Virus record (IMG/VR): IMGVR_UViG_2894352420_000001
Span: 1-64,000 of that record
Reading direction: 5' to 3' (one strand)
Length of the DNA stretch: 64,000 nt
DNA from: a virus
Taxonomy: Duplodnaviria; Caudoviricetes
How positions within the stretch are numbered: the stretch's first letter is position 1; the number at the start of each line of letters is the position of its first letter. A model generated the notes under the pieces. That model was not told where the DNA came from. It worked only from the letters and a program-made list of their open reading frames with translations, and did not search any database. Positions 4,740 through 42,030 of the stretch are shown piece by piece. The position numbers and the translations under genes were made by a program.

Positions 4740-4782
4740 TTATAGTGTGTGTTCTCATACAAATGTAACATAAAATATTTTT

Positions 4783-4803
4783 TATACTTACAATGTAAAT
4801 ATA
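4783..4803. promoter_or_regulatory. Palindromic operator copy 1 between divergent sigma-A-type promoters
   Basis: TATACTTA-caatg-TAAATATA; TACATTTG on - strand at 4760-4767 and TACGTTTG on + strand at 4818-4825. Confidence 0.7.
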
Positions 4804-4828
4804 TTAAATAGTTTTAGTACGTTTGTTA

Positions 4829-4901
4829 TGCGGGGTGGAGGAGATGGTACCTCATTGGGCTCATAACCCAAAGATCGGTCGTTCGAGTCGACCTCCCGCT
4901 T
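4829..4901 (+). tRNA. Initiator tRNA-fMet (CAT)
   Basis: Full cloverleaf: acceptor TGCGGGG/TCCCGCT with unpaired 1:72, D-stem GAGG/CCTC with A11:U24, anticodon stem TTGGG/CCCAA with three G:C pairs, loop CTCATAA, T-arm GGTCG-TTCGAGT-CGACC; CCA not encoded. Confidence 0.93.
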
Positions 4902-4910
4902 CTAATTAAA

Positions 4911-5003
4911 GTGGTATTGTTTCTGTGAGAGGCTACAATACCATTCTTCGGAATGGAAGTTCCAACGAACCCAAATCGACTCTCACGCGATTTGGGTTTC
5001 TTC
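4911..5003 (+). promoter_or_regulatory. Kissing-loop hairpin / terminator-like RNA element A
   Basis: 10-bp stem 4911-4920/4935-4944 with loop GTGAGAG (4925-4931); 11-bp stem 4968-4978/4988-4998 with loop CTCTCAC (4980-4986), followed by a pyrimidine tail. Confidence 0.65.
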
Positions 5004-5013
5004 ATTTAAAAAT

Positions 5014-5548
5014 GGTCGTTAAAAGTGGAAGGAAGTGTTCTTTTTGGAAACGCAAACGCGTATCCGATTTGTATCGTAAGAAGTAAGGGAGTAGTAAAAA
5101 GGAGCTTGAATATTCATACGCGGAGAATTGAAAGGCGGGTGTTTTATGAAACCGGAAGGCTGGTATTCCTGGGAGTTCGATCCTCTCAACGGCCGCAACC
5201 ATCCAGACGACGAGAGGAGTTAGTAATACGGAATAAAGATCAAGAGGACGTTTACCCGGTAAAAGTGTAGGGAAATAATAAAGTCGCCCTTAGCCTGCTT
5301 GAAATTGAGGTCCTACAGGTGAAAACTCCACCGGGAATGTGTGACAAATTAGGCATTCCCGGTTTCAAAACTATCTGGATAACAACACTAAATAAGCGTA
5401 GAACCGATCCGTATAAATAATGAGGCAAGTACGGTCGATGTTGGTAAATCTAAGTGTTTTCTTGCCAGGTATCGTGAATGCCAAATGCAGATTAGTACAA
5501 CATAACGGGGATAGTACCGGCAGCAGTAAAATGTTGCCGGTTTTCAAA
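5014..5548 (+). ncRNA. Candidate large structured ncRNA
   Basis: At least 9 helices of 5-11 bp, including long-range and crossing pairs, plus a T-loop arm; no convincing ORF; directly downstream of the tRNA. Confidence 0.55.
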
Positions 5549-5578
5549 GATTTCATTTCAAATTACAATGCAACAGTC

Positions 5579-5797: not shown

Positions 5798-5813
5798 AAC
5801 AACTTACACACAC

Positions 5814-6887
5814 ATGCCAAATTTCTGCCAAAAGTTCGCAATGAGATGTTCGGAGCAGCAGTGGAAAATTGCTCAGGTTGACGGATATCCTTTGTCTGTT
5901 CAATTGATAAAATTGGGATACGATCTTTCACTACTTCAATTTTACCCGAACAAGCCCTATGTTGCTACTTTCTACAAACAAAGTAGTAACAAGATTTCTA
6001 CAACTAATACCCCTTTTAAAGATGGCAGGGAGGTCATGGAAACATTTGATGCTTCGCTGTTCTATGCGCTTTGCTGCCAATTGGATGGAGATCATGTTAC
6101 GACAGGCGAATTTATTACCACCAATCAAGGCAAAGTATTTCAGGTCCATTCCTTAGAAGGTACCTGGCTGAGACATAACCACCCAGATGGGAAGAACTCA
6201 GCTTTCGCAAAGGCGTCTGTTCACAAAAGCACTTTCCCGGAATTATTTGCTTGGCTTAACGACAACCCGTTACCAGCTGTCGGAATGATTTCTATTGAAG
6301 AACAGATTCAAAAGAAAAATAAGCCTGAACGTAAGATCAAAACTTTGGAAGCAGAAGCCACTTCTGAATCAACACTGGCAGCAGCCGCAAAAATTTTGGC
6401 TTCTGTAAATGAGATGACCATTGAGCAAATGATTGATTGCTCAAATAGTTTGATTTATGGTGCGACTAAAAGCGAAAAAGAAATCTCTGATCAGGTTGCT
6501 GTTGAAATTATTCCAATAACTGAAAATAAATCCGTAGCGCCTCCATTCCCCTCTAATAAATCTGAGATTAATGAATGGTTAGGGAGTTTGGTTATTCCAA
6601 AAAGCAAGGATCCTGTCGTTCTGGAAAATATAAAATCTCACTGTATTTGTCAGCCAATGAATTTCAAAGATTTGCTGTCCTGGTTTGCTGATCACGATTC
6701 CATCGTATGGGGTTTTATTGAAAAAGGCGAGATTCATTCCGAAATCAGATCCATCAGTCATATATCGAAAGAAAGTGTTTTGTTGTCCGGAGATAATGCA
6801 GAGACGGAGTTTCATCAAATATTTCAGGATCAGCAGCACTTTTTAAACTATGCACTATCAAAAATCAAAACAGATAATCCATTATGA
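5814..6887 (+). CDS. Hypothetical phage protein
   Basis: 357-aa ORF with ACACACAC immediately before the ATG. Confidence 0.7.
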   Translation: MPNFCQKFAMRCSEQQWKIAQVDGYPLSVQLIKLGYDLSLLQFYPNKPYVATFYKQSSNKISTTNTPFKDGREVMETFDASLFYALCCQLDGDHVTTGEFITTNQGKVFQVHSLEGTWLRHNHPDGKNSAFAKASVHKSTFPELFAWLNDNPLPAVGMISIEEQIQKKNKPERKIKTLEAEATSESTLAAAAKILASVNEMTIEQMIDCSNSLIYGATKSEKEISDQVAVEIIPITENKSVAPPFPSNKSEINEWLGSLVIPKSKDPVVLENIKSHCICQPMNFKDLLSWFADHDSIVWGFIEKGEIHSEIRSISHISKESVLLSGDNAETEFHQIFQDQQHFLNYALSKIKTDNPL

Positions 6888-7726: not shown

Positions 7727-7729
7727 GTG

Positions 7730-9113: not shown

Positions 9114-9151
9114 TATATTTATATTGTAAGTATATTTTATTCATATATTTG
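9114..9151 (+). promoter_or_regulatory. Palindromic operator copy 2 plus sigma-A -7 box of the RNA-repair operon
   Basis: TATATTTA-tattg-TAAGTATA (9114-9134); TATATTTG (9144-9151). Confidence 0.7.
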
Positions 9152-9161
9152 TGATGTCATA

Positions 9162-9351: not shown

Positions 9352-10368
9352 ATGAATAAAGAATTACTTCTTCAAATGATAAGTGAAAAGTTGGTGACGG
9401 TTCAAAAACACCCGTCCGCTGATTTGTTTATCTATAATTATTCACCCACTGTTCAATATGAAAAACTGTGGAATGAAATCACTTTGCAAACTCGCGGATT
9501 GATTCTTGATTCCGAAATGAATTACGTTGCTCGCCCATTCTCAAAATTTTTCAATTACGAAGAGCATAAGCCAGAAGAAATTCCACTGGTCCCTTTTCAA
9601 GTCTTTGATAAACTTGACGGATCGCTAGGTATTCTTTATTGGATAGAAAATGAGCCCTACATCGCTACGAGAGGAAGCTTTACAAGTAAACAGGCTCTTC
9701 ATGCAACGAGCATATTGCATGGAAATTATTCACATTCTTTTTCTAAGCTTGAAAAGGATAAAACTTATCTTTTTGAGATAATCTACCCAGAAAATAGAAT
9801 TGTAGTCAATTACGGCAAGCTTGATGATATAATCCTATTGGCGATTATTGATAACGAAACCGGCCTTGATTTACCATTACCTGATCAATCATTCTTTAAG
9901 TGCGTAAATAGATATGATGGTTTGTCGGATCTTAATAAAATACGAGAAATTGATAATGCTGACGATGAAGGTTTTGTAATTCTTTTCTCCAATGGAATGC
10001 GCCTTAAGATGAAATTCAAGGAATATGTTCGGCTTCACCGTATTATAACTGGGGTGTCGAATATTGCCATTTGGGAGTATTTAGCCGAAGGCAAACCTTT
10101 TGATGAATTACTTGATCGCGTGCCTGATGAGTTTTATGATTGGGTTAAGAAAACAGAATCGGAACTAACTGGTAAATTCACTGAGATACTGAATCAATGC
10201 AATAGTGTTTTCATGGTAAAAGAATCCAGAAAAGAAACTGCTTTATACTTTCAAACTCAGAAATATCCACCGATTTTATTCCTTATGCTGGACGAAAAAA
10301 GTACTCACAAGGCAATTTGGAAACTCGTGCGCCCGGCTTATTCAAAACCATTCAAAAACGAAATCTAA
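9352..10368 (+). CDS. T4 Rnl1-family ATP-dependent RNA ligase
   Basis: Nucleotidyltransferase motifs KLDGS, FEIIYPENRIVVNY, EGFVILF, RLKMKFKEY. Confidence 0.9.
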   Translation: MNKELLLQMISEKLVTVQKHPSADLFIYNYSPTVQYEKLWNEITLQTRGLILDSEMNYVARPFSKFFNYEEHKPEEIPLVPFQVFDKLDGSLGILYWIENEPYIATRGSFTSKQALHATSILHGNYSHSFSKLEKDKTYLFEIIYPENRIVVNYGKLDDIILLAIIDNETGLDLPLPDQSFFKCVNRYDGLSDLNKIREIDNADDEGFVILFSNGMRLKMKFKEYVRLHRIITGVSNIAIWEYLAEGKPFDELLDRVPDEFYDWVKKTESELTGKFTEILNQCNSVFMVKESRKETALYFQTQKYPPILFLMLDEKSTHKAIWKLVRPAYSKPFKNEI

Positions 10369-11201
10369 TGAAAGTAATATTAACTAAATGGCTACCGGGA
10401 TCAGGTAAATCTACATGGGCAAAAAGTATAATCGATAAAAATCCCAACACCTATAAAAGAATAAATAAGGACGATCTCCGCTCAATGATGGATAATTCCA
10501 ACTGGTCCAAGGACTCAGAAAAATTCATTATAAAGGTGCGTGATACACTAATTCTCCTTGCACTTGAACAAGGAAAGCACGTTATAATAGATGACACTAA
10601 CCTCGCCCCTAAACATGAGGTACATATCCATGATCTTATCAGAGGCAAAGCAGAATTGGAAATTAAGGATTTCACAGACGTCTCAATTGATACCTGCATC
10701 AAATGGGATTTAAAAAGAGCCAACTCCGTAGGTGAAAAAGTAATCCGAAACATGCACAATCAGTTTTTAAAACCTGAAAATGAAATAATTGAGTTTATTG
10801 ATGGCCTTACATCTGCAATTATCTGCGATCTGGACGGAACACTAGCAAATTTGAACGGACGAAACCCGTACGACGCTTCAAAATGCGATAACGACCTTCT
10901 TAATCACGTTGTCGCTGGGATTATAAAAGGAAAAACTGTCATTTTCATGTCTGGACGTGAGGATAAATACAGAGCCCAGACTGAGTTTTTCCTGTCAAAA
11001 CATGGAATAGAATACGTGGGCCTATTTATGCGTGCAACTGGCGATTCCAGAAAGGATTCAATTGTCAAACGAGAACTTTTCGATGCAAACGTCCGTGGAA
11101 GATACAACATAGAATTCGTTCTGGACGACAGAAATCAAGTGGTAGAAACTTGGCGCCAAATGGGTTTAATATGTTTACAGGTTGCAGAAGGAGATTTTTG
11201 A
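10368..11201 (+). CDS. pseT: T4 Pnkp (PseT)-like polynucleotide kinase / 3' phosphatase
   Basis: P-loop (W)LPGSGKST, RINKDDLR, IIDDTN; HAD motifs DLDGT and VLDDR; TAATG coupling to the ligase gene. Confidence 0.88.
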   Translation: MKVILTKWLPGSGKSTWAKSIIDKNPNTYKRINKDDLRSMMDNSNWSKDSEKFIIKVRDTLILLALEQGKHVIIDDTNLAPKHEVHIHDLIRGKAELEIKDFTDVSIDTCIKWDLKRANSVGEKVIRNMHNQFLKPENEIIEFIDGLTSAIICDLDGTLANLNGRNPYDASKCDNDLLNHVVAGIIKGKTVIFMSGREDKYRAQTEFFLSKHGIEYVGLFMRATGDSRKDSIVKRELFDANVRGRYNIEFVLDDRNQVVETWRQMGLICLQVAEGDF

Positions 11202-13680: not shown

Positions 13681-16600
13681 TCAGCCCCCAAACTCCCGAT
13701 TAAAATTAGAATCTAATAGATTTAGCTTGTCGAGTTTTTTACTAATATCAACCAGTAAAACATTGTAGCTGGTATTATGAGCAATTGCTGTTAATTGAAA
13801 AAGCGAGTTGCGGAGAATTGTATTTGAATCTGCCTGGGTGATTCTAATGGCATTTATGGATCCGGCTAAAACGGAAGCAGTTTCCTGTGATACCCCTTGA
13901 ATTGATCCTTGTAATGGATCGGCTGATGATCCAGAAGATACACCGAATACATTTTTTAGCCCATATTTTTCCATTTCCTGGTTAATTAACTCTAAGCCTT
14001 CAGTGTAATCCTTTACACCTTGCTTAACATCCCCATTTGCGAAGAACTCACCAAGGTCATCAACAATTGTACCATCTCCACCAACTCCATATGAAGCCAC
14101 CATACTTTTCTCTAAATCTTTGAATTTTTGAGAGAAAATAGAAGTAAATAAAAGTTTTGATGCCATATCGGCAATTACATCACCAACCGCCTTCCCGAAT
14201 GCCAGTGCAGCGTCCGTTCCGTCGCGGAAGGATCCAACCAAAGCATCTCTAATACTGTCGCCTAACATTCCAGTCAACTCAGAAAGTCCTTCTAGTATTT
14301 GAGTTTTTGATTTATCTAGCTCATCACTGTAAGAAATTGTAGTTTCAAGCAATTCTTTTGTTTTATCATCAACCTGACCTGTTGCGATAAGAGACTTTGC
14401 CATAGCAACATTTAAGCTCTCCCATCCATCCACACCTTTTAATATAAGATCAGGATATTGTTCAAGTAGATTACCAAAAATATCTTTCTTTTTCTTAGCA
14501 AAAAGCCCACTAATCGCCCCTACTGCACCGCCAATCACCGCTCCGACCGCTGCTGTTGCAACGCTAAATAAACCAACACCAACAATACCTCCAATGACAG
14601 CACCTGCTGCGGCACCTGCTCCGGCTAACTGCCCAACAGACTTACCATCAACAACATTTTTTTGTCTTACTTTTGCTTGTCCATCATTTAGCCTGTCAAT
14701 TGCTTCCTGATATTTTTTTTGAGCATCTTGATATTGAGCTACCCCGGCTTTAATTTTAGCCTCTATATCATTATTGAAAATACTATCTTTCCCTGCATAT
14801 GATTGACCAATTTGCTGATTAAGTGCCAGTTGGTAATCATTTTCAAAACTAATACGTGCAAGAGCAAATGCCTTTTCCTCTTCATGACGCTTTTTTGAGG
14901 CAGATACCAAAGCGCCGACAATTGTTATAACACCCTGAATTGCCGCAGCATACTGGTTCATGCTGGTAGTGCCATCCTTATTCGTGGCGAATGCCTGCTT
15001 TATGTTTCCGTACTGCCCCGCTAATCCGGATAAAGCAGAACCAACGGAACCAATTCCGCCACCCATCTCCTGTAATACTTCGCTTAATTGCCCGATAGCA
15101 CCGGCAATCATATCCCATCTTTTTATACTTTTGGCTTTGTAATTTTCTTCAATATTTTGAAGAGTTTCCAGGTGCTGACGGTATTCTTCGGATTCTTTAT
15201 CCAGATTTTTAGTGAATTCGTCAAAATCTTTTCTTGCCTGAATAACTTTATCTCTGCTTATTTCATCATTTGAAAGCTTGGCTATTTTAGCAAATTCCTT
15301 GAATTCCTTAGATTTTTCAGCGACAAGAACATCCTGATCTTTATTAGCTTTTATTTCATCCTCATTGATCTGATTTAAAGCCTTGATGTAAGCTGCGCCT
15401 TTTTCTTTCCCGTAACGTTTTTCAAGTTCAATCCGCAGATCTTTAAACCGGTTTTCGATTTCAAGACGCTTTTGCTCGGATCCGGCAACTTCTAAAAGAT
15501 ATTGTCGAAAATTGTCTTTTCTTTGTGCTGATGCTTCATTGAGTTGCTGCTGTGTGTTTTTACGCTTCAACACAGAATCAGGCGACATATCAGTTGTGCC
15601 TAACTCGGACTGAACAGCTTTCAGCCTTTCAATTTCATCTGTCAAAGAAGTCGCAGACGTCCTGATATCATCTAGCCTTTTCTGAAACTTTTCCAGCGGG
15701 GTTTCTGCACCGGTAACATCCGAATACTCAACCTTTAATTTCACTAACTTTTCCTGCTCCTGTCCGGTCAACGAATCAGGATGAAAAGATTCAAATTCGT
15801 TTATTTGTTGCTTCAAATATTCGGCATAAGATTTACCTTGCGAGATCAGTCCGTCGAATTGCTCATTAGCCGCTTTCGCTCCAAGATTATCAACCCAAAG
15901 CTGATACTGGACATAAATCTTCTTCTTTTCTTCTAATTCTTCATCGAATGAGATGACTGCCAATTTTTTTCGGGCGTTAGCCGCATTCTTTTCAGCATCG
16001 GCAAGTATTGCCTGTTGTTTAGCAATTTGGCCTGTGTTGCTAACCGGTGTCTTTTCAAGTATTTCTTTTGATTTGGAAACTATGTAATCCCAATACGCAG
16101 CAGATCCATAGGGGCCCGATTTATCTGCCTCTTTTGCAGCCGCTTTACTTTCCTTGGAAATAGCTCCGGTAATCCTCGCTTTTTGCTTTTCAAGGTTATC
16201 AATATCCGCTTGAAGTTTCTTAAACTCTGTACTCGAAGATGCTGTTTGTTGAGCATCTTTTTTTGCTTTTATTTCTTCATCATAAGAAGCTACTGTTTTC
16301 TTGATAACCTTTTGTGTATTATCCGAAGACTTTAAACTAGCAGCGTCGGCGGACTGCAAAGCAGTTACACGTTCCAGGATTTTCTTTTGAAGTTCGCCTT
16401 CGCTTTGAACAATCTGTTTATTCGCTGCTATTGTATTCTGAGCCTGAATCTTAGCGAAATCAACTCCTGAAATAGCAGATCCAACCGCATTCCCGGCCGT
16501 CGCTGCCGCGCCAAGTATAGTTGATACAATTCCTGTATCCTTCTTGCCATTTTTAGCATCAAGTTGTCTTTGGATACTTTGATCAAGCTCGTTTTTAAGC

Positions 16601-18685: not shown

Positions 18686-18696
18686 AGTGTGTATTC

Positions 18697-18727
18697 AAAA
18701 AAAGCCTCGGCTAAGAGGCTTTTTTTT
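18697..18727. terminator. Bidirectional intrinsic terminator after the major tail gene
   Basis: AAAAAAAGCCTC-ggctaa-GAGGCTTTTTTT. Confidence 0.75.
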
Positions 18728-18751
18728 ATAATTTTAAGTGTGTTTTTTTGA

Positions 18752-19267: not shown

Positions 19268-19300
19268 TATAGTGTGTGTTTTAAATTTTAATGTGTGTGA

Positions 19301-22213: not shown

Positions 22214-22263
22214 TCTTTAAAATATAAAAGTGTGTGTGTGATTATATTGGCGATTTCAGCTTA

Positions 22264-23636: not shown

Positions 23637-23668
23637 GAAGAATTTGATGTGTGTGTGTAGTGTCAGGA

Positions 23669-23721
23669 CAAAACTATAAATAATATTTTATACTTACAAT
23701 ATAAATATATTTTTATCTTTG
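23669..23721. promoter_or_regulatory. Divergent promoters with palindromic operator copy 3
   Basis: TAGTTTTG (-, 23669-23676), TATACTTA-caata-TAAATATA (23689-23709), TATCTTTG (+, 23714-23721). Confidence 0.72.
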
Positions 23722-23743
23722 TTGGGTAAAACACATACACACT

Positions 23744-26793: not shown

Positions 26794-26819
26794 TTAACAG
26801 ATAACATACACACTTTTTA

Positions 26820-29210: not shown

Positions 29211-29245
29211 ATACACACACTAACAAAGCAAAACTCACTACCAGC

Positions 29246-30113: not shown

Positions 30114-30178
30114 AGGCCGTCGGCGGAGACCCCGCCGATTACAAAATCATACACACAATTATAACAGAAATAATTAAA

Positions 30179-30703
30179 ATGGGCATTGTCCTCTGGCTTT
30201 TAGCCAAAATACTTTCTAATCTTCTTTCCATACCCGCTTTCTTTCACACCATCGCAGGAGCAATCCGTTTTAAAGGTGGCTGGAATTACATCAACCGATC
30301 ATTCCTAAATGCGGCCTACGCAGAAGATGTATATGGAAACATCGCATATGCGACTATGCTCAATGATCTGTTCATCAAAAAAGGCGGCTACCACTACGGT
30401 GCCCGGAATGAAACAATCAGCTCTGCCACTGGGAAAAACTGGGTGAACGGCAAACTAGCTTTTTTGGGCATGGGACTTGCCGGTACATTGAACCTGATTG
30501 ATTATCGTAACTGGGAAAAAGGAGGACACTGCTGGGTTTCGATTCAAGGATGGTCTCAGTATGATTTCATTGGCAAGAGACCGCCACGACGTGTGCCGGT
30601 TTATTATACTGCTTCTTTTATCCTGCTTGCTTTCATCCTTCTTTTTGCCCTTTGGAAATTATCCATGTGGCTGATCATCATTCTTCACACACTACTATTT
30701 TAA
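30179..30703 (+). CDS. Phage lysis-region membrane protein
   Basis: TM segments at both ends; DVYGN...ETISSATGKN...HC motif seen in phage lysis cassettes. Confidence 0.5.
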   Translation: MGIVLWLLAKILSNLLSIPAFFHTIAGAIRFKGGWNYINRSFLNAAYAEDVYGNIAYATMLNDLFIKKGGYHYGARNETISSATGKNWVNGKLAFLGMGLAGTLNLIDYRNWEKGGHCWVSIQGWSQYDFIGKRPPRRVPVYYTASFILLAFILLFALWKLSMWLIIILHTLLF

Positions 30704-31158
30704 TGAAAACACAAAAAGAATTAATTGCGAAGCTCGGTAACCCATATACGGCTCTCAAAACGTTTGAGAAAAAATGGATGGAATACTGGGATATCCCAGA
30801 CGACATCAACAAAGAAATTCCTGCCCTACCCAATAAGGTTTACATGAACTACCTGATCATCCAGCCTTTTGAAGACACGATGCGTGAGTTGATTGCGACT
30901 GGTCTTCACAAAGAAATTAAGACATGGGATGGATGCTTTAATGTTCGCACCAAACGTGGACAATCCGGGATTTCTGTTCATTCTTGGGGCATTGCGGTTG
31001 ATCTGAATGCTGCATGGAATACTTTTCATGGAAAAGTTTCCTGGTCAAATGAGTTCTTGGATGTTTGGAGACGCAATGGCTGGATTTGTGGTGCGGATTG
31101 GTCGAAGGCATCCGTTGATGGGATGCATTTTCAGGGAGACAATTTTGTTCCTGCGTAA
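30703..31158 (+). CDS. Endolysin, M15 family Zn peptidase
   Basis: CFNVRTKRG...SVHSWGIAVDLN...DGMHFQ (SxHxxGxAxD plus distal His). Confidence 0.88.
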   Translation: MKTQKELIAKLGNPYTALKTFEKKWMEYWDIPDDINKEIPALPNKVYMNYLIIQPFEDTMRELIATGLHKEIKTWDGCFNVRTKRGQSGISVHSWGIAVDLNAAWNTFHGKVSWSNEFLDVWRRNGWICGADWSKASVDGMHFQGDNFVPA

Positions 31159-33453: not shown

Positions 33454-33472
33454 ATACTTATATTGTAAGTAT
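33454..33472. promoter_or_regulatory. Palindromic operator copy 4
   Basis: Perfect ATACTTA-tattg-TAAGTAT upstream of the SGNH gene; imperfect -7 box TATATTTA at 33480-33487. Confidence 0.7.
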
Positions 33473-33523
33473 TTTTAATTATATTTACGATATAAAAAGA
33501 TTACCATACACACACTACGAAAA

Positions 33524-36500
33524 ATGGGATTACTTGCCGGGATTGGCGACTTTGGTTTGGACGCAATACTTCAAGCTGCCCTTGATGCAAAAGTAAAAGC
33601 TGTATTGGCTGCAAATTCAGCTGAAGAATCATTAATTTCAGTGCTAGGACCATTTAAACCACAAAATACATCATGGAATGTATTAACAAATACTCCAAAT
33701 TTATCTGCACTTGGATTAGTACAATCCGATCAAGGAAAGTTATGGATTGTTGCAGTTGGCGGGACCAGTAATTTAACCGGAACATCAATAACGTATAATA
33801 TTGGTGATTCAGTTTACTGGAGTGGTCAAAATTGGGTGCGTAGGGCATTCACTATATCTTCAAAAAGTATAGGAACCACAGAACTTAAAGATGCATCCGT
33901 TACGCCTAATAAGACTACGTTCTTTACTTACGGTAAAAATTTATTTAATAAATACCTTGTAATAGAGGGATCAGCTGTAAATAATTCTGGAGCAATACAA
34001 TCTAGTCAATCTACGTACTCAATAAGTGGAAAGTGTTCAGTTTTACCTTTAACGACTTATACTTTGTCTGGGAGTATATTCAGCCCGGCATTTGTTAAGG
34101 TTAGGTTCGAAGACGAGCTTGGTAACTTTTTAGGTGTTTACAATGCTAACAGTGCAAATTTCACAAGCCTACCTGCCACTTTTTCTACACCGGCTAATTG
34201 CACGAACCTTATTTTTAACACAAAAACGGCTTCATCTGGCAATTACGACAACATTCAATTAGAATTGGGTTCCGTAGCTACTTCTTACGAACCATTCAAA
34301 CTTAATGTTTCATTTCCTTTGCTTGGGTTACCACTTAATTCGGTAACAAAAGATTCTATATTAGATAGAGTTGTGTCTGCCATAAAAACAGATTTTATCA
34401 TTGCCGGTAAAAATAAAATTGACAAATCTGCAATTGTTGAAAACTTAGTTATTACTGATACTGGCCTGATAAATGCTTCTAATGGGTATTCTATTGTTAA
34501 ATGTGAAGTAAAGCCATTAGCTCAATATATTTACAGTGGCGTTATGAATGCTCAAAGTGGGGTTAGAATAAGATTTGAAGATTCTTCAGGTACTTTTCTT
34601 GGTGTTTATAACGCTGTGTCGGCAAATTTCACTACCCTCCCTGCTACATTTACGACACCAGCGAATTGTACTAGGTTGTGGATTTCAACTAAAATAAATT
34701 CGACTTCGGATTATAATACTATTCAGCTCGAATTGGGGGCAACAGTTACACAATATGAATCTTTTTATTTAGCGTTAGATTCAATTTATACTAATGCGTT
34801 GAGCTCTTTTTCTAAATATGATATTGATTATATATTATCTAAGTTCAGCGTTAAAGGAAAGAATTTAATTGATAAGAATAAAATAATAGAAGGGTTAACT
34901 TTAAACAATTCCGGGTCGATACTTTCGCTTGCTAATTATTCAATGATTCTTGTAAATGTACTACCTAATACAGCTTACACATATTCTGGAGTAATTGGAT
35001 TTCCTAGTGGAACCAAAGTTCGTTTTGAGCAATCTGACGGAACATTTATTAGCGTTTACAACGCTAATGGCGCAAATTTCACCACCTTGCCTGCAACTTT
35101 TACGACACCAGCGAATTGTACTAGATTGTGGATTTCAACTAAAATAAATTCAACTTCAGATTACAATACTATTCAGCTTGAGCTAGGATCTGTTGCAACA
35201 GTATACGAAGCTTATAAAATAACTATGTCTTCTGATAATGTTGATTTATCCAGCGTTTACACAAAAGCACAGTCGGATTTAATTTATGGAAAGTTGACAG
35301 TTCCATCTAAAAACTTAATAAATAAAGACTTAATTCAAGAAAATAAGGGTTTAACTAATACAACTGGCCTTATTGTAACACAGGCTGGTTATGCTATATG
35401 TCCGGCAGTAGTTGAACCTTCAACTCAATATGTATATTCTGGAACGATGGTTCTACCTCAATATGTTAAAATCAGATTTGAGGATGCTTCCGGTGCTTTT
35501 TTGGGACTTTACAATTCGAATTCCGCTGATTTTTCAACGCTCCCTGCTGTATTTTATACCCCTGCTAACTGTGTGAAAATTTACATTACTGTTAAAACAG
35601 TAGGGACTTCAGATTATAACTCAATTCAATTAGAGAAAGGTGCCGTTCCAACAACGTATATTGCATTTGGCAATAAGATACCATCAAGCCAACTTGATCT
35701 TGTTTTATACTACACAAAGGCGCAATCCGACGCTACTTTCGCTAACGCGGCATCTTTTTATACAAAAGTGCAATCTGATTTGCTATATGCAAAATATACG
35801 ATCCAAGGAAAGAATTTATTCAACAAAGCTGCAGTAATTGAAGGGCAAGCTGTGTCCAATACTGGGGCCATTGTTAATGATGCTACTTACGCAATAACAG
35901 AAAAAATTACTGTAACCCCTTCGACAGTTTATACTCTTTCAGGTGCGATAGGCGGTGCGCCATTTATTAAGATTCGTTATGAGCAATCTGACGGAACTTT
36001 TATTAGTGTTTACAATGCGAATAGTGCAAATTTCACCAACCTACCTGCTACTTTTACGACACCAGCCGGATGTACAAAGGTTATAATAAATGTAAAAGCT
36101 AATTCGACCTCGGATTATAATACTATTCAGATTGAGCTAGGATCTGTTGCAACATCTTACGTTTCATTTGGGAGTAAATTAGATGCCTCAAACATTGACC
36201 TTTCATCGTATTACACTAAAAATCAAACAGATGCAGTCTTCGTAAAACCAAACGTTCCAAGTAAAAATTTAATTGATAAAAGTAAAATAATTGAAGCGCA
36301 AGCTGTAAATAATACAGGCGCAATAGTAAATCAATCCGGTTACGCGATTACCGAAAAAATTACTGTTTTGCCTCTAACATCTTACACTTTATCTGGAACA
36401 GTTCAGAATCCACAGTACGTAAAGATTCGGTATGAAGATGCAGGTGGTGCACTTTTGGGCGTTTATAACGCGAATTCTGCAAACTTTTCAACATTGCCTG

Positions 36501-37303
36501 CAACCTTTACTACACCTAGTCTATGCGTAAAGGTAATTATTAACGTCAAGGCCGCTGGTACATCAAACTACGACACAGTTCAACTTGAATTAGGTACAGT
36601 CGCAACAGGATATACAGCCGGAATAAATAAAATTAATCCAGATTATTTAGATCTAAGCGCGCTGAATTTAAGCGGGTACGTCAGTAAAGCTTCGTATCTA
36701 ATTTGGCAAGGTAAAAAATGGGCTTTTCTTGGTGATAGTATTACTGCCCAAGGCTATTACATTCCATATGTGCAGGCTGTGCACGGATTTACTTGGGAAA
36801 AAGATGGTATTGGTGGAAGTTGTATTGCCCAGGGGAAAGAGGATATTGAAAATGACGGCGTTCATAGAACAGCATTTGTAGACAGAATAGCTGGCATAAC
36901 AGCAATGGCGGCCGATGGAATATTTATTTTTGGTGGAACAAACGACTGGTATTATAATGTACCTATTGGCGTAGTTACTGACACGGTAAAAACTACGTTT
37001 TACGGAGCGCTAAAATATCTGCTAGCCACTTTACAATCTCAAAATGTTGGAAAAACGATCGTGATTTGCACTCCCCTTCAACGTGGCAATAGCCGGGCTA
37101 ATTATACAGCTCAGAAAGCTTATGCAGATGCAATTAAAGAAGTGTCCGGGATGTATTCTGTGCCGCTTCTTGATTTGTTTAATAGCTCTGGAATAACCTA
37201 CGAAAATATTGGTCAATTTACCAGTGATAATGTACACCCTTCCTCCGCAGTTGGCGCACCTTACATTGCTAGGAAGATGAATAGTTTTTTATTTAGAGTA
37301 TAA
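33524..37303 (+). CDS. Fibre- or spike-like protein with six ~150-aa repeated modules and a C-terminal SGNH/GDSL esterase
   Basis: Six KNL(F/I)(N/D)K...IQLELG repeats; FLGDSIT, GGTND and DNVHP catalytic blocks. Confidence 0.8.
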   Translation: MGLLAGIGDFGLDAILQAALDAKVKAVLAANSAEESLISVLGPFKPQNTSWNVLTNTPNLSALGLVQSDQGKLWIVAVGGTSNLTGTSITYNIGDSVYWSGQNWVRRAFTISSKSIGTTELKDASVTPNKTTFFTYGKNLFNKYLVIEGSAVNNSGAIQSSQSTYSISGKCSVLPLTTYTLSGSIFSPAFVKVRFEDELGNFLGVYNANSANFTSLPATFSTPANCTNLIFNTKTASSGNYDNIQLELGSVATSYEPFKLNVSFPLLGLPLNSVTKDSILDRVVSAIKTDFIIAGKNKIDKSAIVENLVITDTGLINASNGYSIVKCEVKPLAQYIYSGVMNAQSGVRIRFEDSSGTFLGVYNAVSANFTTLPATFTTPANCTRLWISTKINSTSDYNTIQLELGATVTQYESFYLALDSIYTNALSSFSKYDIDYILSKFSVKGKNLIDKNKIIEGLTLNNSGSILSLANYSMILVNVLPNTAYTYSGVIGFPSGTKVRFEQSDGTFISVYNANGANFTTLPATFTTPANCTRLWISTKINSTSDYNTIQLELGSVATVYEAYKITMSSDNVDLSSVYTKAQSDLIYGKLTVPSKNLINKDLIQENKGLTNTTGLIVTQAGYAICPAVVEPSTQYVYSGTMVLPQYVKIRFEDASGAFLGLYNSNSADFSTLPAVFYTPANCVKIYITVKTVGTSDYNSIQLEKGAVPTTYIAFGNKIPSSQLDLVLYYTKAQSDATFANAASFYTKVQSDLLYAKYTIQGKNLFNKAAVIEGQAVSNTGAIVNDATYAITEKITVTPSTVYTLSGAIGGAPFIKIRYEQSDGTFISVYNANSANFTNLPATFTTPAGCTKVIINVKANSTSDYNTIQIELGSVATSYVSFGSKLDASNIDLSSYYTKNQTDAVFVKPNVPSKNLIDKSKIIEAQAVNNTGAIVNQSGYAITEKITVLPLTSYTLSGTVQNPQYVKIRYEDAGGALLGVYNANSANFSTLPATFTTPSLCVKVIINVKAAGTSNYDTVQLELGTVATGYTAGINKINPDYLDLSALNLSGYVSKASYLIWQGKKWAFLGDSITAQGYYIPYVQAVHGFTWEKDGIGGSCIAQGKEDIENDGVHRTAFVDRIAGITAMAADGIFIFGGTNDWYYNVPIGVVTDTVKTTFYGALKYLLATLQSQNVGKTIVICTPLQRGNSRANYTAQKAYADAIKEVSGMYSVPLLDLFNSSGITYENIGQFTSDNVHPSSAVGAPYIARKMNSFLFRV
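34651..35178 (+). repeat. Near-identical coding repeats in modules 2 and 3
   Basis: 34651-34728 vs 35101-35178: 78 nt with 4 synonymous differences. Confidence 0.85.
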
Positions 37304-38156: not shown

Positions 38157-38163
38157 GCCACTC

Positions 38164-38787
38164 ATGACAGATCCACGGAGAAAAGATAAACAGAAAGCGA
38201 GCGCAAGACGGGTTATCGTCGCCGAGTGCTATAAGAAAGGTATGACTATCCGTCAGACTTGCGAGGTTGTGATGAAGCAAATGGGACTGGATAAACTACC
38301 AAGTGTCAAAGCTGTTTTTAACGACCGTCATGCCCTTCTGGCTGAATGGAGAAGTGAAAGAATGAGCGACATAGATGATATGGTTCAGCTCGAATTGCAG
38401 CGCATTGATGACGCCGTAATGGTTCTTTGGGATGCATGGCAAAAATCATCTACCGATCATAAGTCCAAATTTACCAAGCGAAAGGGCGAGTTACCAGCAG
38501 CCGGAAAAGGGAAAGGTGACAAGGAAATTGCATCTGACAAAATAACGACAACTCATTTGGAGCAAGGCGAAAAGGAAGAAATCAACTTTGGTGATCCAAG
38601 ATACATTTCTGAAATCCGTTTTCAGCTGATCGAGAGGCGTAAGCTTTTAGGTATGTATGCTCCGGAGAAGAAAGAACTGACTGGGAAAAATGGCTCTCCC
38701 CTACGCGCACCGATAACATTTCTTAGCGCCGAAAATATGACTGACGAGCAGATTGAAAAGTTTTTAAATGATAGGGATAACCACTAA
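38164..38787 (+). CDS. terS: Terminase small subunit
   Basis: N-terminal HTH-like region; KKELTGKNGSPL C-terminal motif; precedes terL. Confidence 0.75.
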   Translation: MTDPRRKDKQKASARRVIVAECYKKGMTIRQTCEVVMKQMGLDKLPSVKAVFNDRHALLAEWRSERMSDIDDMVQLELQRIDDAVMVLWDAWQKSSTDHKSKFTKRKGELPAAGKGKGDKEIASDKITTTHLEQGEKEEINFGDPRYISEIRFQLIERRKLLGMYAPEKKELTGKNGSPLRAPITFLSAENMTDEQIEKFLNDRDNH

Positions 38788-39979
38788 GGTTTTTGATTCA
38801 CTAAATGCTTCATTCTTGTCTGAAAAATATAATGTGTTTGTTCTGGAAGGAGGTTCCAGAAGTTCGAAAACGCATAGTATTATCCAGTTTTGGATTAGAT
38901 GGGCATATATAAACGAGTCTAGGACAAAGCGTGTGGTGGTTGCACGTTTGAAAGGAACATGGCTAAATGGTACCGTTTATAAAGACTTCATTGACGTTTT
39001 AAAAGGGTACGGATTATATGATCGTAAGTCTGAAAATAAAACCAATAAAATCTACACCTTATTTGGTACAGAGTTCTGGTTTGTTGGTTTGGATGATCCT
39101 CAGAAAATACATGGTATGCAAACTGACGCTTTCTGGATAAACGAAGCTGTGGAAGCTTCAAAAGACTCATACGATCAGCTAATGCAACGTTGTAAGGGTT
39201 TTGCGATACTTGATTACAACCCCAGTGAAGAAGAACACTGGATTTACGACAGTGTTTGTAAGCGCGAGAAAACATGGTATTCGCATAGCACTATGCTTGA
39301 CAATCGACTGATCCCTAAAAATGCCAAAGAACAAATTCTATCATATGAGCCTACACCTGATAATTATAAAAATGGTACTGTCGATAAGCGCAAATGGCTG
39401 ATATACGGGCTAGGCAAACGTGCTAAAATTGAAGGTCTCGTTTTTGAAAATTGGGAGATTGTTCCGGAAATACCAAGCATGGCAATTCAGTACCAGGGGC
39501 TCGATTTTGGTTATACTAATGATGTAACAGCGCTGGAAAATGTAGGAATCTGGAAGGGAGAAAATAGTCTGTACATGGATGAGCTGTGTTATAAAACCCA
39601 CATGACTTCCAGCGATATAATAAATACTTTAAAATCTGTAAATCGAAACCGCAAGATTTGGAGTGAAAGCGCCGACCCTCGTTTAGTTAATGAGATATTC
39701 GTTGCCGGATTTAATATTCATGCCGTCCAAAAATATCAAGGTTCTGTAAAAGCTGGCATTGACAAGATGAAATCAATGAAATTATTTGTCACCGAAGGTT
39801 CATTGAATATAATAAAGGAATTAAAAAACTATACGTATAAGCAGGACAAAAATGGCGTATGGCTGAATGAACCTATAGATGCATGGAATCACAGTATTGA
39901 TGGATCTCGATATGTGGTAATGTCTGAATTACTTGGCAAGCCAGAGCCAAAAAGAAATCTTGGAAGTTTTTTACGATAA
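38768..39979 (+). CDS. terL: Terminase large subunit (PBSX family)
   Basis: LEGGSRSSKT, FWINEA, LDYNP, GLDFGYTND, NHSIDGSRY. Confidence 0.93.
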   Translation: MIGITTKVFDSLNASFLSEKYNVFVLEGGSRSSKTHSIIQFWIRWAYINESRTKRVVVARLKGTWLNGTVYKDFIDVLKGYGLYDRKSENKTNKIYTLFGTEFWFVGLDDPQKIHGMQTDAFWINEAVEASKDSYDQLMQRCKGFAILDYNPSEEEHWIYDSVCKREKTWYSHSTMLDNRLIPKNAKEQILSYEPTPDNYKNGTVDKRKWLIYGLGKRAKIEGLVFENWEIVPEIPSMAIQYQGLDFGYTNDVTALENVGIWKGENSLYMDELCYKTHMTSSDIINTLKSVNRNRKIWSESADPRLVNEIFVAGFNIHAVQKYQGSVKAGIDKMKSMKLFVTEGSLNIIKELKNYTYKQDKNGVWLNEPIDAWNHSIDGSRYVVMSELLGKPEPKRNLGSFLR

Positions 39980-39990
39980 TACACACACTA

Positions 39991-41433
39991 ATGAATTACG
40001 AAACTCTTAAACAGTGGCTGAATCAGGTTTCTGATACAACCAAGCTTATAAATATTTTGTGCTCCCAAGGAAAGGATTTCAAAATTGAAGATCTGAAAAA
40101 ACAGTGGGATGTAAAGGAACACGCAGTAATGAATGAGTCTATCCGTCCTAAAAGAACTGTTAATTACGAATATGATGAATCCGATGGGAATGGTGGTTTT
40201 GTAACAAAAACTGGTACAAAACAGGAGTATGTTAATCGCATCCCTGTACCAATGCAAAAAAACATCGTTGGCAAAGCTGTTACATTCCTGTTTGGTAATC
40301 CCGTAGATATCCAGTCAGATGCAGCTTCTCCAGAGGAAATATTGGTTCTTGACGCTATAAAAAAGATTCTTGACGACAATAAAACGGATAGCCAAAACAG
40401 AGTAATAGCCAAAAATCTATTCAAAAGTACTCAGGTAGTAGAGATTTGGTATCCTGAACTGAAAGAAGAAGAGCACGAAGATTATGGATTTAAAACAAAA
40501 TTCAGGCTTCGTTTGTCAATTTTTAGTCCATGGGACGGAAGTGAACTCTATCCCTATTTTGATGAAAAAGGAGATCTCATCGCTTTTAGCAGGTTGTTTG
40601 TCATTAAAGATGATGAAAACAAAAATGTTAAACATTTTGAATGTTATACCTCCGATAACTATTATTTATGGCAGAATAATCAGCAAGGCTGGACTTTAAG
40701 TAAAAAAACACCAAACATTTTAAAACGAATTCCACTGGTTTTTGCGGAGCAGGAAGATGCGGAATGGGCCGATGTGCAATTTGCTATCGAAAGGCTTGAA
40801 ATTCTTCTTTCTAGTCATGGAGACACCAATGATTATAATGGATCCCCGACGGTTGTCGCAGAAGGTCAAATTTTAAGTTTGGGAAAAAAAGGAGAACAGG
40901 GAAAAGTAATAGAAGTTGAGAAAGGTGGTAAAGTTGGCCTTATGGTTTGGGAAGGAGCGCCGGAATCTATTAGAATGGAAGTTGAAAACATGTTTAAGGT
41001 GATACTTACCTACACCCAAACACCAGATATATCATTCGAAGCTGTTAAAGGAATGGGGGCCATCTCCGGCATCGCTCTACGCTTATTATTTATGGATGCA
41101 CATTTAAAGGTCATGGATAAGCGTGAGACATTTGATCCCTATCTAAAACGCCGTTTAAATATTATAAAATCATTTGTCGGCTCGATGAACGTTGCCTGGG
41201 CAAAAACGGCTAGCAAGCTTAAAGTTGATGCTGAAATTATTCCATATACTATAAAAGACGTAATGGAAGAAATTAACGCCTTGGTCGTTGCAAACGGCGG
41301 TAAACCAATTATAAGTCAGATGCAGTCAGTAAATAAAGCTGGTTTAGTTTCTGATCCAGTTGCTGATTTTAAACAGATCCAGGAAGAAACAACTACGGCA
41401 AACACCTTTAGTATTTCAGGGCCGACGATATAA
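39991..41433 (+). CDS. Portal protein, SPP1 family
   Basis: 480 aa after terL; YTQTPDISFE...SGIALRLLF motif. Confidence 0.9.
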   Translation: MNYETLKQWLNQVSDTTKLINILCSQGKDFKIEDLKKQWDVKEHAVMNESIRPKRTVNYEYDESDGNGGFVTKTGTKQEYVNRIPVPMQKNIVGKAVTFLFGNPVDIQSDAASPEEILVLDAIKKILDDNKTDSQNRVIAKNLFKSTQVVEIWYPELKEEEHEDYGFKTKFRLRLSIFSPWDGSELYPYFDEKGDLIAFSRLFVIKDDENKNVKHFECYTSDNYYLWQNNQQGWTLSKKTPNILKRIPLVFAEQEDAEWADVQFAIERLEILLSSHGDTNDYNGSPTVVAEGQILSLGKKGEQGKVIEVEKGGKVGLMVWEGAPESIRMEVENMFKVILTYTQTPDISFEAVKGMGAISGIALRLLFMDAHLKVMDKRETFDPYLKRRLNIIKSFVGSMNVAWAKTASKLKVDAEIIPYTIKDVMEEINALVVANGGKPIISQMQSVNKAGLVSDPVADFKQIQEETTTANTFSISGPTI

Positions 41434-41455
41434 TTACAAAAACAGAAACAACTGA

Positions 41456-41989
41456 ATGGTCACAAAATTAGGCTACAACACAACTATTTTCGAAGGAGCA
41501 AGGGCCATTATTCAATCTGATCATGTTGCAATTGATATGATCATGTGCATGCTAGGGCGGCTAATCTCAAACGGAACATACCGGGCAGTTTATGAACATG
41601 CGTTGGATCCAACCAAGGTTATAAAGATTGAATATGGCCACGTACAAAAGACAGACCATGATTGCACAATGCAAAACAGCTACTGCAACATTCAGGAGTT
41701 TCTTATGTGGCGAGAGATAGAAGGATTGACGGGAAAACTCGAATGGGTTAAAAATTGGTTCGCTCTTATTGACTGGATAAGTCCGGGTGGCCATATTATG
41801 TGCATGGCAAAAACTTCGGAAATGCCCGAGTTAAAAAGGCCTGACAAAATACCACGTTTTATGTGGGATGTTAAACAGGATAATTTCGGATGGATTGGAG
41901 ATAAGTTCGTTTGTCATGACTATGGTCATGTTCAAGCGTTTACTTCTTACAGTACAAAAATGATGACACTAAAAGAAATTTGGGATTAA
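41456..41989 (+). CDS. Small protein-kinase-like protein
   Basis: ISNGTYRAVY (Gly loop), VIK, QEF, DVKQDNFG (catalytic loop), HDYG (DFG-like). Confidence 0.65.
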   Translation: MVTKLGYNTTIFEGARAIIQSDHVAIDMIMCMLGRLISNGTYRAVYEHALDPTKVIKIEYGHVQKTDHDCTMQNSYCNIQEFLMWREIEGLTGKLEWVKNWFALIDWISPGGHIMCMAKTSEMPELKRPDKIPRFMWDVKQDNFGWIGDKFVCHDYGHVQAFTSYSTKMMTLKEIWD

Positions 41990-42030
41990 TAATTCAATTA
42001 TGGCGAATTCGCCATAATTAAACACACACT

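What the first reader, a model, noticed from the sequence alone, without database searches (positions are those of the whole stretch)
4744..42030. ACACAC(T) element just upstream of 14 start codons, mostly morphogenesis and lysis genes
Seen within 0-25 nt of starts at 4739, 5814, 18685, 19267, 22213, 23636, 23744, 26820, 29246, 30179, 30703, 33524, 39991 and 42031 (e.g. aacacacactATG, atacacacactaATG), always on the coding strand. There are double copies before 18685 and 19267, and the copy before 30703 lies inside the end of the previous CDS. By eye I saw none before the early/replication genes (43.7-63.9 kb) or the RNA-repair genes. Established: Bacteroidota mostly do not use Shine-Dalgarno pairing. 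Inference: an RNA-level late translation enhancer or a binding site for a phage RNA-binding protein.
Basis: partly seen in the sequence, partly recalled or inferred. Interest (0 to 1): 0.7.

Follow-up and report, generated by a model that had tools for sequence, protein, structure and literature searches.

The report
Start-linked ACACACAC motif, phage late genes
A prophage of a Dyadobacter-like soil bacterium, whose phylum does not use the usual ribosome-binding signal, puts the same short word (ACACACACT) just before the start codon of about half of its separately started head, tail and lysis genes. The word most likely marks where translation starts, much like the unexplained 'start-associated sequences' of some mycobacteriophages.

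Summary
All 14 listed starts carry ACACAC 0-25 nt upstream on the coding strand, and both double copies are real. No early, replication or RNA-repair gene has it.

- **Enrichment:** ACACAC is the top enriched word before late genes (13/43, p about 1e-18) against 0/33 early genes.
- **Same phage family, same host genus:** four diverged prophages in other species of the genus (inferred Dyadobacter; capsid 43-48% identical) and two metagenomic relatives use the same word.
- **Same family, other genera:** relatives in four other genomes do not. One 70%-identical relative uses CATACTATAC instead.
- **Spacing:** of 67 pooled sites, 49 lie 0-8 nt from ATG. The word is at 51% of genes with a 4-100 nt gap and 4% of overlapping genes.
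- **Host:** it shows the same spacing 6-fold above background, but in only about 0.5% of genes and in no ribosomal-protein gene.
- **No match:** it does not pair with the visible 16S 3' tail or fit a promoter. No phage RNA-binding protein or sigma factor was found.

Best reading: an RNA-level element at the translation start that stands in for Shine-Dalgarno (about 0.5). Its partner is unknown. A dedicated binding factor, an RNA cleavage site or an L5-type DNA site remain possible.

The parts
4744..4752 (-). ACACACACT, 5 nt before the ATG of the tail-protein gene 3498-4739. It lies about 2 nt after the predicted transcription start of a TAcaTTTG (-7 box) promoter.
   Evidence: PHROG tail protein
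5806..5813 (+). ACACACAC directly abutting the ATG of ORF 5814-6887 (function unknown). The gap after the previous ORF is 16 nt.
18686..18692 (-). ACACACT, 0 nt before the ATG of ORF 18188-18685, in the position of a tail chaperone gene. It follows directly after a terminator-like hairpin.
18697..18719 (-). Intrinsic-terminator-like hairpin (GCCTC...GAGGC plus a T7 run) between the major-tail-like gene and the next gene. It is flanked on both sides by motif copies.
   Evidence: sequence
18737..18743 (-). Second copy (AAACACACT) between the stop of 18752-19267 and the terminator. No start codon follows it. A copy at this place is seen in 5 of 8 related phages.
19271..19279 (-). ACACACACT followed by ATA and the ATG of ORF 18752-19267 (major-tail position).
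19290..19298 (-). Upstream second copy (CACACACAT) just after the stop of 19301-19714.
22229..22239 (-). CACACACACACT, 16 nt before the ATG of the major capsid gene 21131-22213.
   Evidence: Conserved in L014 and L016.
23648..23658 (-). ACACACACACA, 12 nt before the ATG of ORF 22944-23636 (first gene of the head operon, phrog_5824). It lies just after the predicted transcription start.
23735..23743 (+). ATACACACT abutting the ATG of ORF 23744-24211, the first gene of the divergent operon.
26806..26814 (+). ATACACACT, 5 nt before the ATG of ORF 26820-28595.
29213..29221 (+). ACACACACT, 24-25 nt before a GTG start (29246). This is the weakest of the 14 sites.
30151..30157 (+). ACACACA, 21-22 nt before the ATG of ORF 30179-30703, which lies next to the lysis gene.
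30685..30693 (+). TCACACACT inside the 3' end of ORF 30179-30703, 9-10 nt before the ATG of the endolysin-like ORF 30703-31158.
33508..33516 (+). ACACACACT, 7-8 nt before the ATG of the tail-fibre gene 33524-37303.
39981..39989 (+). ACACACACT followed by A and the ATG of the portal gene 39991-41433. It fills almost all of the 11-nt spacer after the large terminase gene.
42022..42030 (+). ACACACACT abutting the ATG of the minor-head / ADP-ribosyltransferase-like gene 42031-43752.

Best explanation
ACACACAC(T)(A) is a start-associated sequence. It acts in cis on the mRNA of phage late genes, in the place where a Shine-Dalgarno sequence would sit in other bacteria.

**What it does.** It promotes initiation or re-initiation of translation at cistrons that are not coupled to the previous gene by overlap.

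**Host.** The host is a Spirosomaceae bacterium, inferred to be Dyadobacter. Ribosomes of this phylum (Bacteroidota) do not use Shine-Dalgarno pairing.

**Shown.**
- The anatomy of the sites: coding strand, spacing to the ATG, and restriction to one gene class.
- Preference for uncoupled cistrons.
- Conservation of the word across diverged phages of one host genus.
- The same word at the same spacing in a few host genes.
- No complementarity to the visible 16S 3' tail.

**Inferred.**
- That the word raises translation.
- That the host translation machinery reads it. Of my 0.5, I put about 0.3 on a ribosomal component or a host protein, and about 0.2 on a dedicated factor that I could not see.

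The phage lineage appears to have fixed one member of a set of G-free, C/A-rich words that are enriched before host starts.
For: **Position and strand**
- The word is coding-strand only and 0-25 nt from all 14 starts.
- Among 67 pooled sites from 7 phages, the gap to the ATG is 0-8 nt in 49, with a mode of 1 nt.
- In the late modules, 38/75 genes with a 4-100 nt gap carry it against 3/77 overlapping genes (Fisher p = 1e-11).

**Geometry that excludes a promoter box**
- The word fills 11-16 nt intercistronic spacers (39991, 5814).
- It follows a terminator directly (18685).
- It lies inside the previous CDS (30703).
- At four promoters it sits at about +3 to +15 of the predicted transcript, that is, in the 5' UTR. 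Promoter geometry is from PMC6847099.

**Conservation**
- The 8-9 nt word is identical in prophages G201, G301, G319 and G048, whose capsid proteins are only 43-48% identical to this one.

**Host**
- ACACAC clusters with a 0-8 nt gap number 27, against 4.7 per 9-nt bin further upstream. This holds on the sense strand only.
- CACACA and ACACAC rank 1st and 4th of 908 hexamers for enrichment at -22..-1.

**Precedent**
- Cluster K mycobacteriophage start-associated sequences (PMC3203893).
Against: **No functional data.** Nothing here measures translation.

**Points against a generic strong signal**
- Highly expressed host genes (the ribosomal-protein operon) lack the word, and only about 0.5% of host genes have it.
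- Early phage genes have none (0/33). Low-copy late genes such as the lysis and tape-measure genes do have it. So the word follows gene class, not protein abundance, which points to regulation.

**Points towards a lineage-specific partner**
- Unrelated HK97-capsid prophages of the same genus mostly use another word, TCATCAACAA.
- A 70%-identical relative uses CATACTATAC.

**Other difficulties**
- A copy with no start codon sits before the terminator after the major-tail gene in 5 of 8 phages.
- Predicted local RNA structure does not differ between starts with and without the motif.
- The word cannot pair with the 16S 3' tail.
- The published structure of an initiation complex of an SD-less Flavobacterium johnsoniae ribosome shows no ordered mRNA upstream of -3 (PMC13000457).
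Confidence: 0.5

Rival explanations
1. The word is the binding site on mRNA of a dedicated trans-acting factor, either a phage-encoded or host-encoded RNA-binding protein or a small RNA. The factor switches late-gene translation on late in infection, or keeps it off in the lysogen. Analogues are T4 RegA and Mu Com, or GcvB acting on C/A-rich enhancers.
For: - The word is restricted to late genes whatever their copy number.
- Different phage lineages in the same host genus use different exact words: ACACACACT, TCATCAACAA and CATACTATAC.
- There is a copy next to a terminator with no start codon after it.
- Sequence conservation is far tighter than a simple composition effect would need.
Against: - No RNA-binding domain was found in the window ORFs. 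Many of those ORFs have no family at all, so this is weak evidence.
- No gene is shared only by the motif-positive phages, apart from 23744 and 24208, which look like fibre genes.
- The only GUGUGU-bearing leader (60484-60640, minus strand) is not conserved in G301.
- Host genes unrelated to phage carry the word at the same spacing.
Confidence: 0.2
2. The word is an endoribonuclease processing site. Cleavage there cuts the polycistronic late transcripts into messages with very short leaders or none. Analogues are the ACA or UAC specificity of MazF-type nucleases, and T4 RegB acting on GGAG.
For: - The modal arrangement is ACACACT directly before ATG.
- Copies lie at cistron junctions and beside a terminator.
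- The word is made of tandem ACA/CAC units.
Against: - No nuclease candidate was found.
- A copy just 5' of the terminator would remove the protective 3' hairpin.
- Four copies already lie at the 5' end of primary transcripts.
- Nothing in the sequence distinguishes cleavage from binding.
Confidence: 0.1
3. The word is a DNA-level site of the mycobacteriophage L5 'stoperator' type. In that system an asymmetric site oriented with transcription is bound by a prophage protein, which blocks elongation into the late genes during lysogeny.
For: - The word is asymmetric, in one orientation, intergenic, in many copies and specific to the phage. L5 sites share these properties (as discussed in PMC3203893).
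- It avoids coding sequence.
Against: - The operators at this prophage's promoters are a different, palindromic sequence, ATACTTA-N4-TAAGTAT.
- The word is absent from the whole early half.
- The tight 0-8 nt spacing to the ATG, and the same spacing in ordinary host genes, are not expected of a transcription roadblock.
Confidence: 0.08
4. The word is a late promoter or initiator element that starts leaderless or near-leaderless transcripts. It would be read by a phage-specific polymerase or sigma factor. ACACACTATA resembles positions -8 to -1 of the SP6 and K11 promoters (from memory, not tested).
For: - It is a phage-lineage-specific word in front of many late genes, including eight consecutive genes in G301.
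- Other phages in this scan were read as having late promoters that abut start codons (earlier notes e1-5853021 and e1-2664718; these are leads only).
Against: - In 19 of 67 sites the word ends 0-2 nt from the ATG. A -7/-10-type box there would start transcription inside the ORF (geometry from PMC6847099).
- No RNA polymerase or sigma domain was found in the window.
- Ordinary -7 boxes (TAnnTTTG) already stand upstream of four copies.
- Nothing is conserved upstream of the copies that lie inside operons.
Confidence: 0.05

Closest known systems
Start-Associated Sequences (SAS) of Cluster K mycobacteriophages (Pope et al. 2011, PMC3203893; function still untested in 2025, PMC12699233)
   Same: - A short asymmetric repeat in 11-19 copies per genome.
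- One orientation only.
- A few nt (3-7) upstream of start codons, mostly ATG.
- Confined to one half of the genome.
- Sometimes overlaps the stop codon of the upstream gene.
- Rare in the host.
- Conserved across diverged relatives.
   Different: - SAS is GGGATAGGAGCCC and contains the Shine-Dalgarno core that pairs with 16S. This word is G-free and cannot pair with the 16S 3' tail.
- SAS marks non-structural genes. This word marks structural and lysis genes.
- No extended inverted-repeat (ESAS) companion was seen.
- The host phylum does not use Shine-Dalgarno pairing.
C/A-rich (ACA) translational enhancers of enterobacteria and CA-repeat enhancers in E. coli (Sharma 2007; Yang 2014; Martin-Farmer & Janssen 1999; cited from memory, not read here)
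   Same: Tandem CA/ACA units beside the start codon, thought to help 30S binding without pairing to the anti-Shine-Dalgarno sequence.
   Different: - Those elements work alongside a Shine-Dalgarno sequence and are loosely defined by composition.
- Here one exact 8-9 nt word recurs, there is no Shine-Dalgarno sequence, and use is restricted to one phage gene class.
Kozak-like upstream adenines of Bacteroidia (A-3, A-6, A-12, A-13; PMC6847099, PMC13000457)
   Same: - The same phylum and the same region of the mRNA.
- This host shows the A-rich peak at -14..-11.
- The commonest motif registers keep A at -3.
   Different: - The known determinants are single adenines at fixed positions.
- This is a specific C-alternating word whose register to the ATG varies from 0 to 8 nt.
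- It is absent from the most highly expressed host genes.
Stoperators of mycobacteriophage L5 / Cluster A
   Same: Many asymmetric, orientation-specific intergenic copies in a temperate phage.
   Different: - Stoperators have the same sequence as the promoter operator and are spread over the whole genome.
- Here the promoter operator is a different palindrome, and the word occurs only in late genes, tied to the ATG.

Membership tests
Start-associated sequences (Cluster K mycobacteriophage type) | A short asymmetric repeat, more than 10 copies per genome, in the orientation of the downstream gene | tested here: met
   16 copies in the window, all on the coding strand. There are 5-15 per related prophage.
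Start-associated sequences (Cluster K mycobacteriophage type) | Placed a few nt upstream of the start codon | tested here: met
   The gap is 0-8 nt in 49 of 67 pooled sites.
Start-associated sequences (Cluster K mycobacteriophage type) | Contains the Shine-Dalgarno core and can pair with the 16S 3' end; consensus GGGATAGGAGCCC | tested here: not met
   The word has no G. The 16S 3' end seen on contig C48 reads ...GGAACACCUCCUUUCU and has no complement to it.
Start-associated sequences (Cluster K mycobacteriophage type) | Essentially absent from the host genome | tested here: inconclusive
   It precedes 0.9% of host ORFs, as do other A3C3 words. But it is 6-fold enriched at the 0-8 nt spacing.
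Shine-Dalgarno sequence | Complementary to the 3' tail of 16S rRNA | tested here: not met
Bacteroidota sigma-A promoter (-33 TTTG / -7 TAnnTTTG) | Matches the -7 box and lies about 5 nt upstream of a transcription start that precedes the ATG | tested here: not met
   There is no TTTG in the word. It ends 0-2 nt from the ATG in 19 of 67 sites. True -7 boxes lie upstream of it at four sites.
T7/SP6-type single-subunit RNA polymerase promoter | A polymerase gene is present in the phage, and the transcription start directly after TATA precedes the ATG | tested here: not met
   No RNA polymerase family was found in any large ORF. In ACACACTATG sites the start would fall after the ATG.
L5-type stoperator | Same sequence as the repressor operator at the regulated promoters, and spread over the whole prophage | tested here: not met
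   The promoter operator is the palindrome ATACTTA-N4-TAAGTAT. There are no copies at 43.7-64 kb.
C/A-rich translational enhancer | Raises translation when placed next to a start codon | not testable with these tools
   Only composition and position fit. A reporter assay or toeprint is needed.

The most novel reading that the evidence does not exclude
Shine-Dalgarno-less Bacteroidota may have a second, sequence-specific code for choosing start sites. In this reading, discrete G-free words (ACACACACU, UCAUCAACAA, CAUACUAUAC, AACUAAA) dock on a defined ribosomal or ribosome-associated receptor. Each phage lineage standardises on one word to drive its late genes. The word would then be a true functional replacement for Shine-Dalgarno, with its own receptor still to be found.
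Probability: 0.25. Interest if true: 0.8.

Novelty: new variant of a known kind. Interest (0 to 1): 0.55.

Why it matters
How ribosomes of Bacteroidota pick start codons without Shine-Dalgarno pairing is only partly understood. The known determinants are single upstream adenines and low RNA structure (PMC6847099, PMC13000457).

A discrete 8-9 nt word, conserved over deep phage divergence and tied to start codons, gives a handle that can be mutated, pulled down and toeprinted. This is true whether its partner is the ribosome or a regulator.

It also extends the unexplained start-associated sequences of mycobacteriophages to a second phylum and to late genes. It suggests that such words are a general phage device.

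In practice, the word helps to call starts and to recognise late modules in Spirosomaceae prophages. It may also be useful as an expression part.

Tried and rejected
- **Host-wide trait:** rejected as a simple reading. 0.9% of host ORFs carry the word against 21% of window ORFs, and the ribosomal-protein operon has none. A weak positional signal in the host is real.
- **Pairing with the 16S 3' tail:** rejected. The rest of the 16S is withheld, so other segments could not be checked.
- **An unstructured landing pad only:** predicted folding and unpaired probability of -40..+40 do not differ between starts with and without the motif.
- **Anti-motif small RNA:** the only GUGUGU in a transcribed leader (about 60565, minus strand) folds on its own CACAC and is missing from the homologous leader in G301.
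- **Phage initiator tRNA as a partner:** the window's initiator-type tRNA-Met is absent from the other motif-positive phages.
- **Phage-encoded sigma factor, polymerase or RNA-binding protein:** no Pfam or PHROG hit.
- **A gene present only in motif-positive phages:** only 23744 and 24208, which are probably fibre genes.
- **Rfam:** only the tRNA.
- **Close relatives:** none in GenBank phages or IMG/VR. Relatives came from genomes and from the large protein collection.
- **Genus-wide count of ACACACTATAATG:** 21 against 3 control hits in 62 genomes, and 15 against 16 in 274 genomes of other genera. This is inflated by orthologous loci, so it counts only as weak support.
- **Host of L015:** could not be identified.

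Full report
**1. What the window is**

The window (G000:C23:47332-111331) lies in a 7.39-Mb genome of 39.7% G+C. It carries a siphovirus-like prophage. Identified genes:

| Coordinates | Strand | Gene or family |
|---|---|---|
| 1-4739 | - | tail proteins |
| 9352-11201 | + | Rnl1-type RNA ligase plus PNKP |
| 13681-17964 | - | tape measure |
| 21131-22213 | - | major capsid (Phage_cap_E) |
| 30703-31158 | + | endolysin-like |
| 33524-37303 | + | tail fibre |
| 38768-39979 | + | large terminase |
| 39991-41433 | + | portal |
| 42031-43752 | + | minor head / ADP-ribosyltransferase-like |
| 47083-50735 | + | UmuD/UmuC/SRAP/Fpg-like cargo |
| 56372-57886 | - | DnaB helicase |
| 60699-61856 | - | sliding clamp |

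The host genus is inferred to be Dyadobacter (Spirosomaceae). Two capsid relatives named 'Dyadobacter sp. LHD-138' and 'Dyadobacter bucti' sit on contigs of 33,927 and 475,452 bases. These are exactly the lengths of G319:C55 and G301:C37, both of which are 'same genus' as G000. 'Spirosoma pollinicola' (8,794,837 bases) matches G219 of genus g7.

**2.

- ACACAC occurs 34 times against 15.1 +/- 4.2 in shuffles.
The double copies before 18685 and 19267 are real. The copy before 30703 lies inside the previous ORF.
- A blind word count puts ACACAC first among words in the 30 nt upstream of ORFs at 1-43.8 kb (13 of 43 against 0.28 expected, p = 1.4e-18). It finds none before the 33 ORFs at 43.7-64 kb.
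- The consensus is (A/T)ACACACAC-T-A.

**3. It is not a promoter box**

- Four copies (before 4739, 23636, 23744 and 33524) lie downstream of host-type promoters. Three of these have a TAnnTTTG -7 box and the fourth a degenerate one. Each promoter carries a shared palindrome, ATACTTA-N4-TAAGTAT.
- In Bacteroidota the -7 box spans -12 to -5 (PMC6847099). The word therefore falls at about +3 to +15 of the transcript, which is in the 5' UTR.
- The other copies are inside operons. One fills the 11-nt spacer between the terminase and portal genes. One abuts the ATG of 5814. One follows an intrinsic-terminator-like hairpin directly (18685). One is inside a CDS (30703).
- In 19 of 67 pooled sites the word ends 0-2 nt from the ATG. 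A -7/-10-type element there would start transcription inside the gene.
- No sigma factor or RNA polymerase family was found.

**4. Relatives**

No close relative exists in GenBank phages or IMG/VR. Capsid searches in genomes and in the large protein collection gave a graded series.

- Metagenomic contigs L014 (83% capsid identity) and L016 (62%) keep ACACACAC before the capsid, major-tail, chaperone and tape-measure genes.
- Prophages of four other species of the same genus keep the identical word before 5-15 late genes each. These are G201, G301, G319 and G048, and their capsids are only 43-48% identical to this one.
- Prophages of the same capsid family in other genera do not have it. These are G219, G296, G032 and G145, at 45-50% identity.
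- L015 (70% identity, host unknown) has CATACTATAC at the equivalent places.

The word is therefore held by selection over deep divergence. It follows host genus or regulatory background rather than descent of the structural genes.

**5. Spacing and coupling**

- In 67 pooled sites the gap from ACACAC to ATG is 0-8 nt in 49 and at most 18 nt in 63. The mode is 1 nt, as in ACACACTATG.
- In the late modules of the seven phages, 38 of 75 genes with a 4-100 nt gap carry the word.
- Only 3 of 77 genes that overlap or abut the previous gene carry it (Fisher p = 1e-11).
- This fits an element needed where translation must start afresh. Any intergenic element would, however, also avoid coding sequence.

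**6. The host**

- Only 50 of 5560 host ORFs (0.9%) have ACACAC within 31 nt, no more than other A3C3 words, against 13 of 61 in the window.
- The ribosomal-protein operon has none.
- Within the host the word is nonetheless position-specific. There are 27 clusters at a 0-8 nt gap against 4.7 per 9-nt bin further upstream, on the sense strand only.
- CACACA and ACACAC rank 1st and 4th of 908 hexamers for enrichment at -22..-1.
- The host genes concerned are heterogeneous: aquaporin, RuvA, DprA, an ECF sigma factor, a Wza-like exporter, several PD-(D/E)XK and other small mobile-type genes.
- Other G-free words (AACTAAA, ACCTAAC, CATCAAC) are enriched there too.

**7. Other phages of the same genus**

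- Ten HK97-capsid prophages were examined.
- Eight have no ACACAC before any start.
- At least five use TCATCAACAA before capsid, tail and also early genes.
- One (G315) has four ACACAC sites.

So several exact words coexist in one host genus. This is the main argument for lineage-specific partners, and it stands against a single ribosomal receptor.

**8. Partner searches that failed**

- The 16S 3' end visible on contig C48 (...GGAACACCUCCUUUCU) has no complement to the word. The rest of the 16S is withheld.
- No conserved anti-motif RNA was found.
- The window's initiator-type tRNA-Met is not shared by the other motif-positive phages.
- Predicted structure does not differ between starts with and without the word.
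- No gene is specific to the motif-positive phages, apart from probable fibre genes.

**9. Reading**

The anatomy is that of the start-associated sequences of Cluster K mycobacteriophages. Those are a 13-bp asymmetric repeat in 11-19 copies, 3-7 bp before starts, confined to one genome half, and of unproven function (PMC3203893, PMC12699233).

Here the word has no Shine-Dalgarno core, sits in late genes, and occurs in a phylum whose ribosomes ignore Shine-Dalgarno (PMC7797042, PMC13000457).

My odds are:

| Reading | Probability |
|---|---|
| Cis-acting RNA element at translation initiation | about 0.5 |
| Dedicated trans-factor site | 0.2 |
| RNA cleavage site | 0.1 |
| L5-type stoperator | 0.08 |
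| Promoter | 0.05 |

One fact is unexplained by the main reading. A copy with no start codon sits just before the terminator after the major-tail gene in 5 of 8 phages.

**10. Earlier scan notes**

Notes on other genomes describe phage late promoters abutting start codons, and phage initiator tRNAs. They led me to weigh the promoter rival and to look at the tRNA. Neither changed the verdict.

Noticed in passing
window 4829-4902 (+): The prophage carries a tRNA-Met(CAU) of initiator type. It has three G:C pairs at the base of the anticodon stem, an anticodon arm identical to that of the host initiator (G000:C34:61361-61434), and a 1x72 mismatch. It is not found in the related prophages examined.
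   Followed up: partly
window 4903-5419: A 517-nt stretch with no ORF lies next to the tRNA. It contains a T-arm-like GGGAGTTCGATCCTCTC followed by ...ACCA, so it may be a structured or tRNA-like RNA. Rfam and ARAGORN find nothing there.
   Followed up: partly
window 4781-4793(-), 23687-23699(-), 33460-33480(+), 60664-60688(-), 9124-9136(+), 46955-46967(+): A palindromic, operator-like element, ATACTTA-TATT-GTAAGTAT, overlaps the -33 region of at least five phage promoters, each with a TAnnTTTG -7 box. It stands before both late and early operons and is probably the prophage repressor site.
   Followed up: partly
window 9352-11201 (+): A T4-type RNA ligase 1 (PF09511) and a polynucleotide kinase-phosphatase (PF25109) lie side by side. 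This is a tRNA-repair pair of the kind phages use against anticodon nucleases.
   Followed up: no
window 47083-50735 (+): A cargo block of UmuD-like S24 peptidase, Y-family polymerase (UmuC-like), SRAP and an Fpg-type glycosylase sits inside the prophage.
   Followed up: no
HK97-capsid prophages fetched: G152 (L106-L107), G316 (L096-L097), G331 (L114-L115), G311 (L112-L113), G313 (L100-L101): A second start-associated word, (T)TCATCAACAA(AC), lies 3-25 nt before the capsid, tail, fibre and some early genes of unrelated HK97-capsid prophages of the same host genus.
   Followed up: partly
L015:8400-14450: A relative with 70% capsid identity (NCBI assembly contig, 49% G+C) has CATACTATAC where this phage has ACACACACT. 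The motif has been swapped at homologous sites.
   Followed up: partly
window 18737-18743 (-) and the equivalent places in L014, L016, G201 and G315: A motif copy with no start codon lies 5-15 nt upstream of the terminator hairpin that follows the major-tail gene. It is present in 5 of 8 phages and is unexplained.
   Followed up: partly
window 60484-60640 (-): The roughly 155-nt leader of ORF 60196-60483 contains a GUGUGU...CACAC hairpin. It is the only transcribed anti-motif in the window, and it is not conserved in the G301 homologue.
   Followed up: yes
G000 genome-wide: Host start regions are enriched 7-10 fold in the G-free words AACTAAA and ACCTAAC at -20..-1. They also show the A-rich peak at -14..-11 described for Flavobacterium.
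   Followed up: partly
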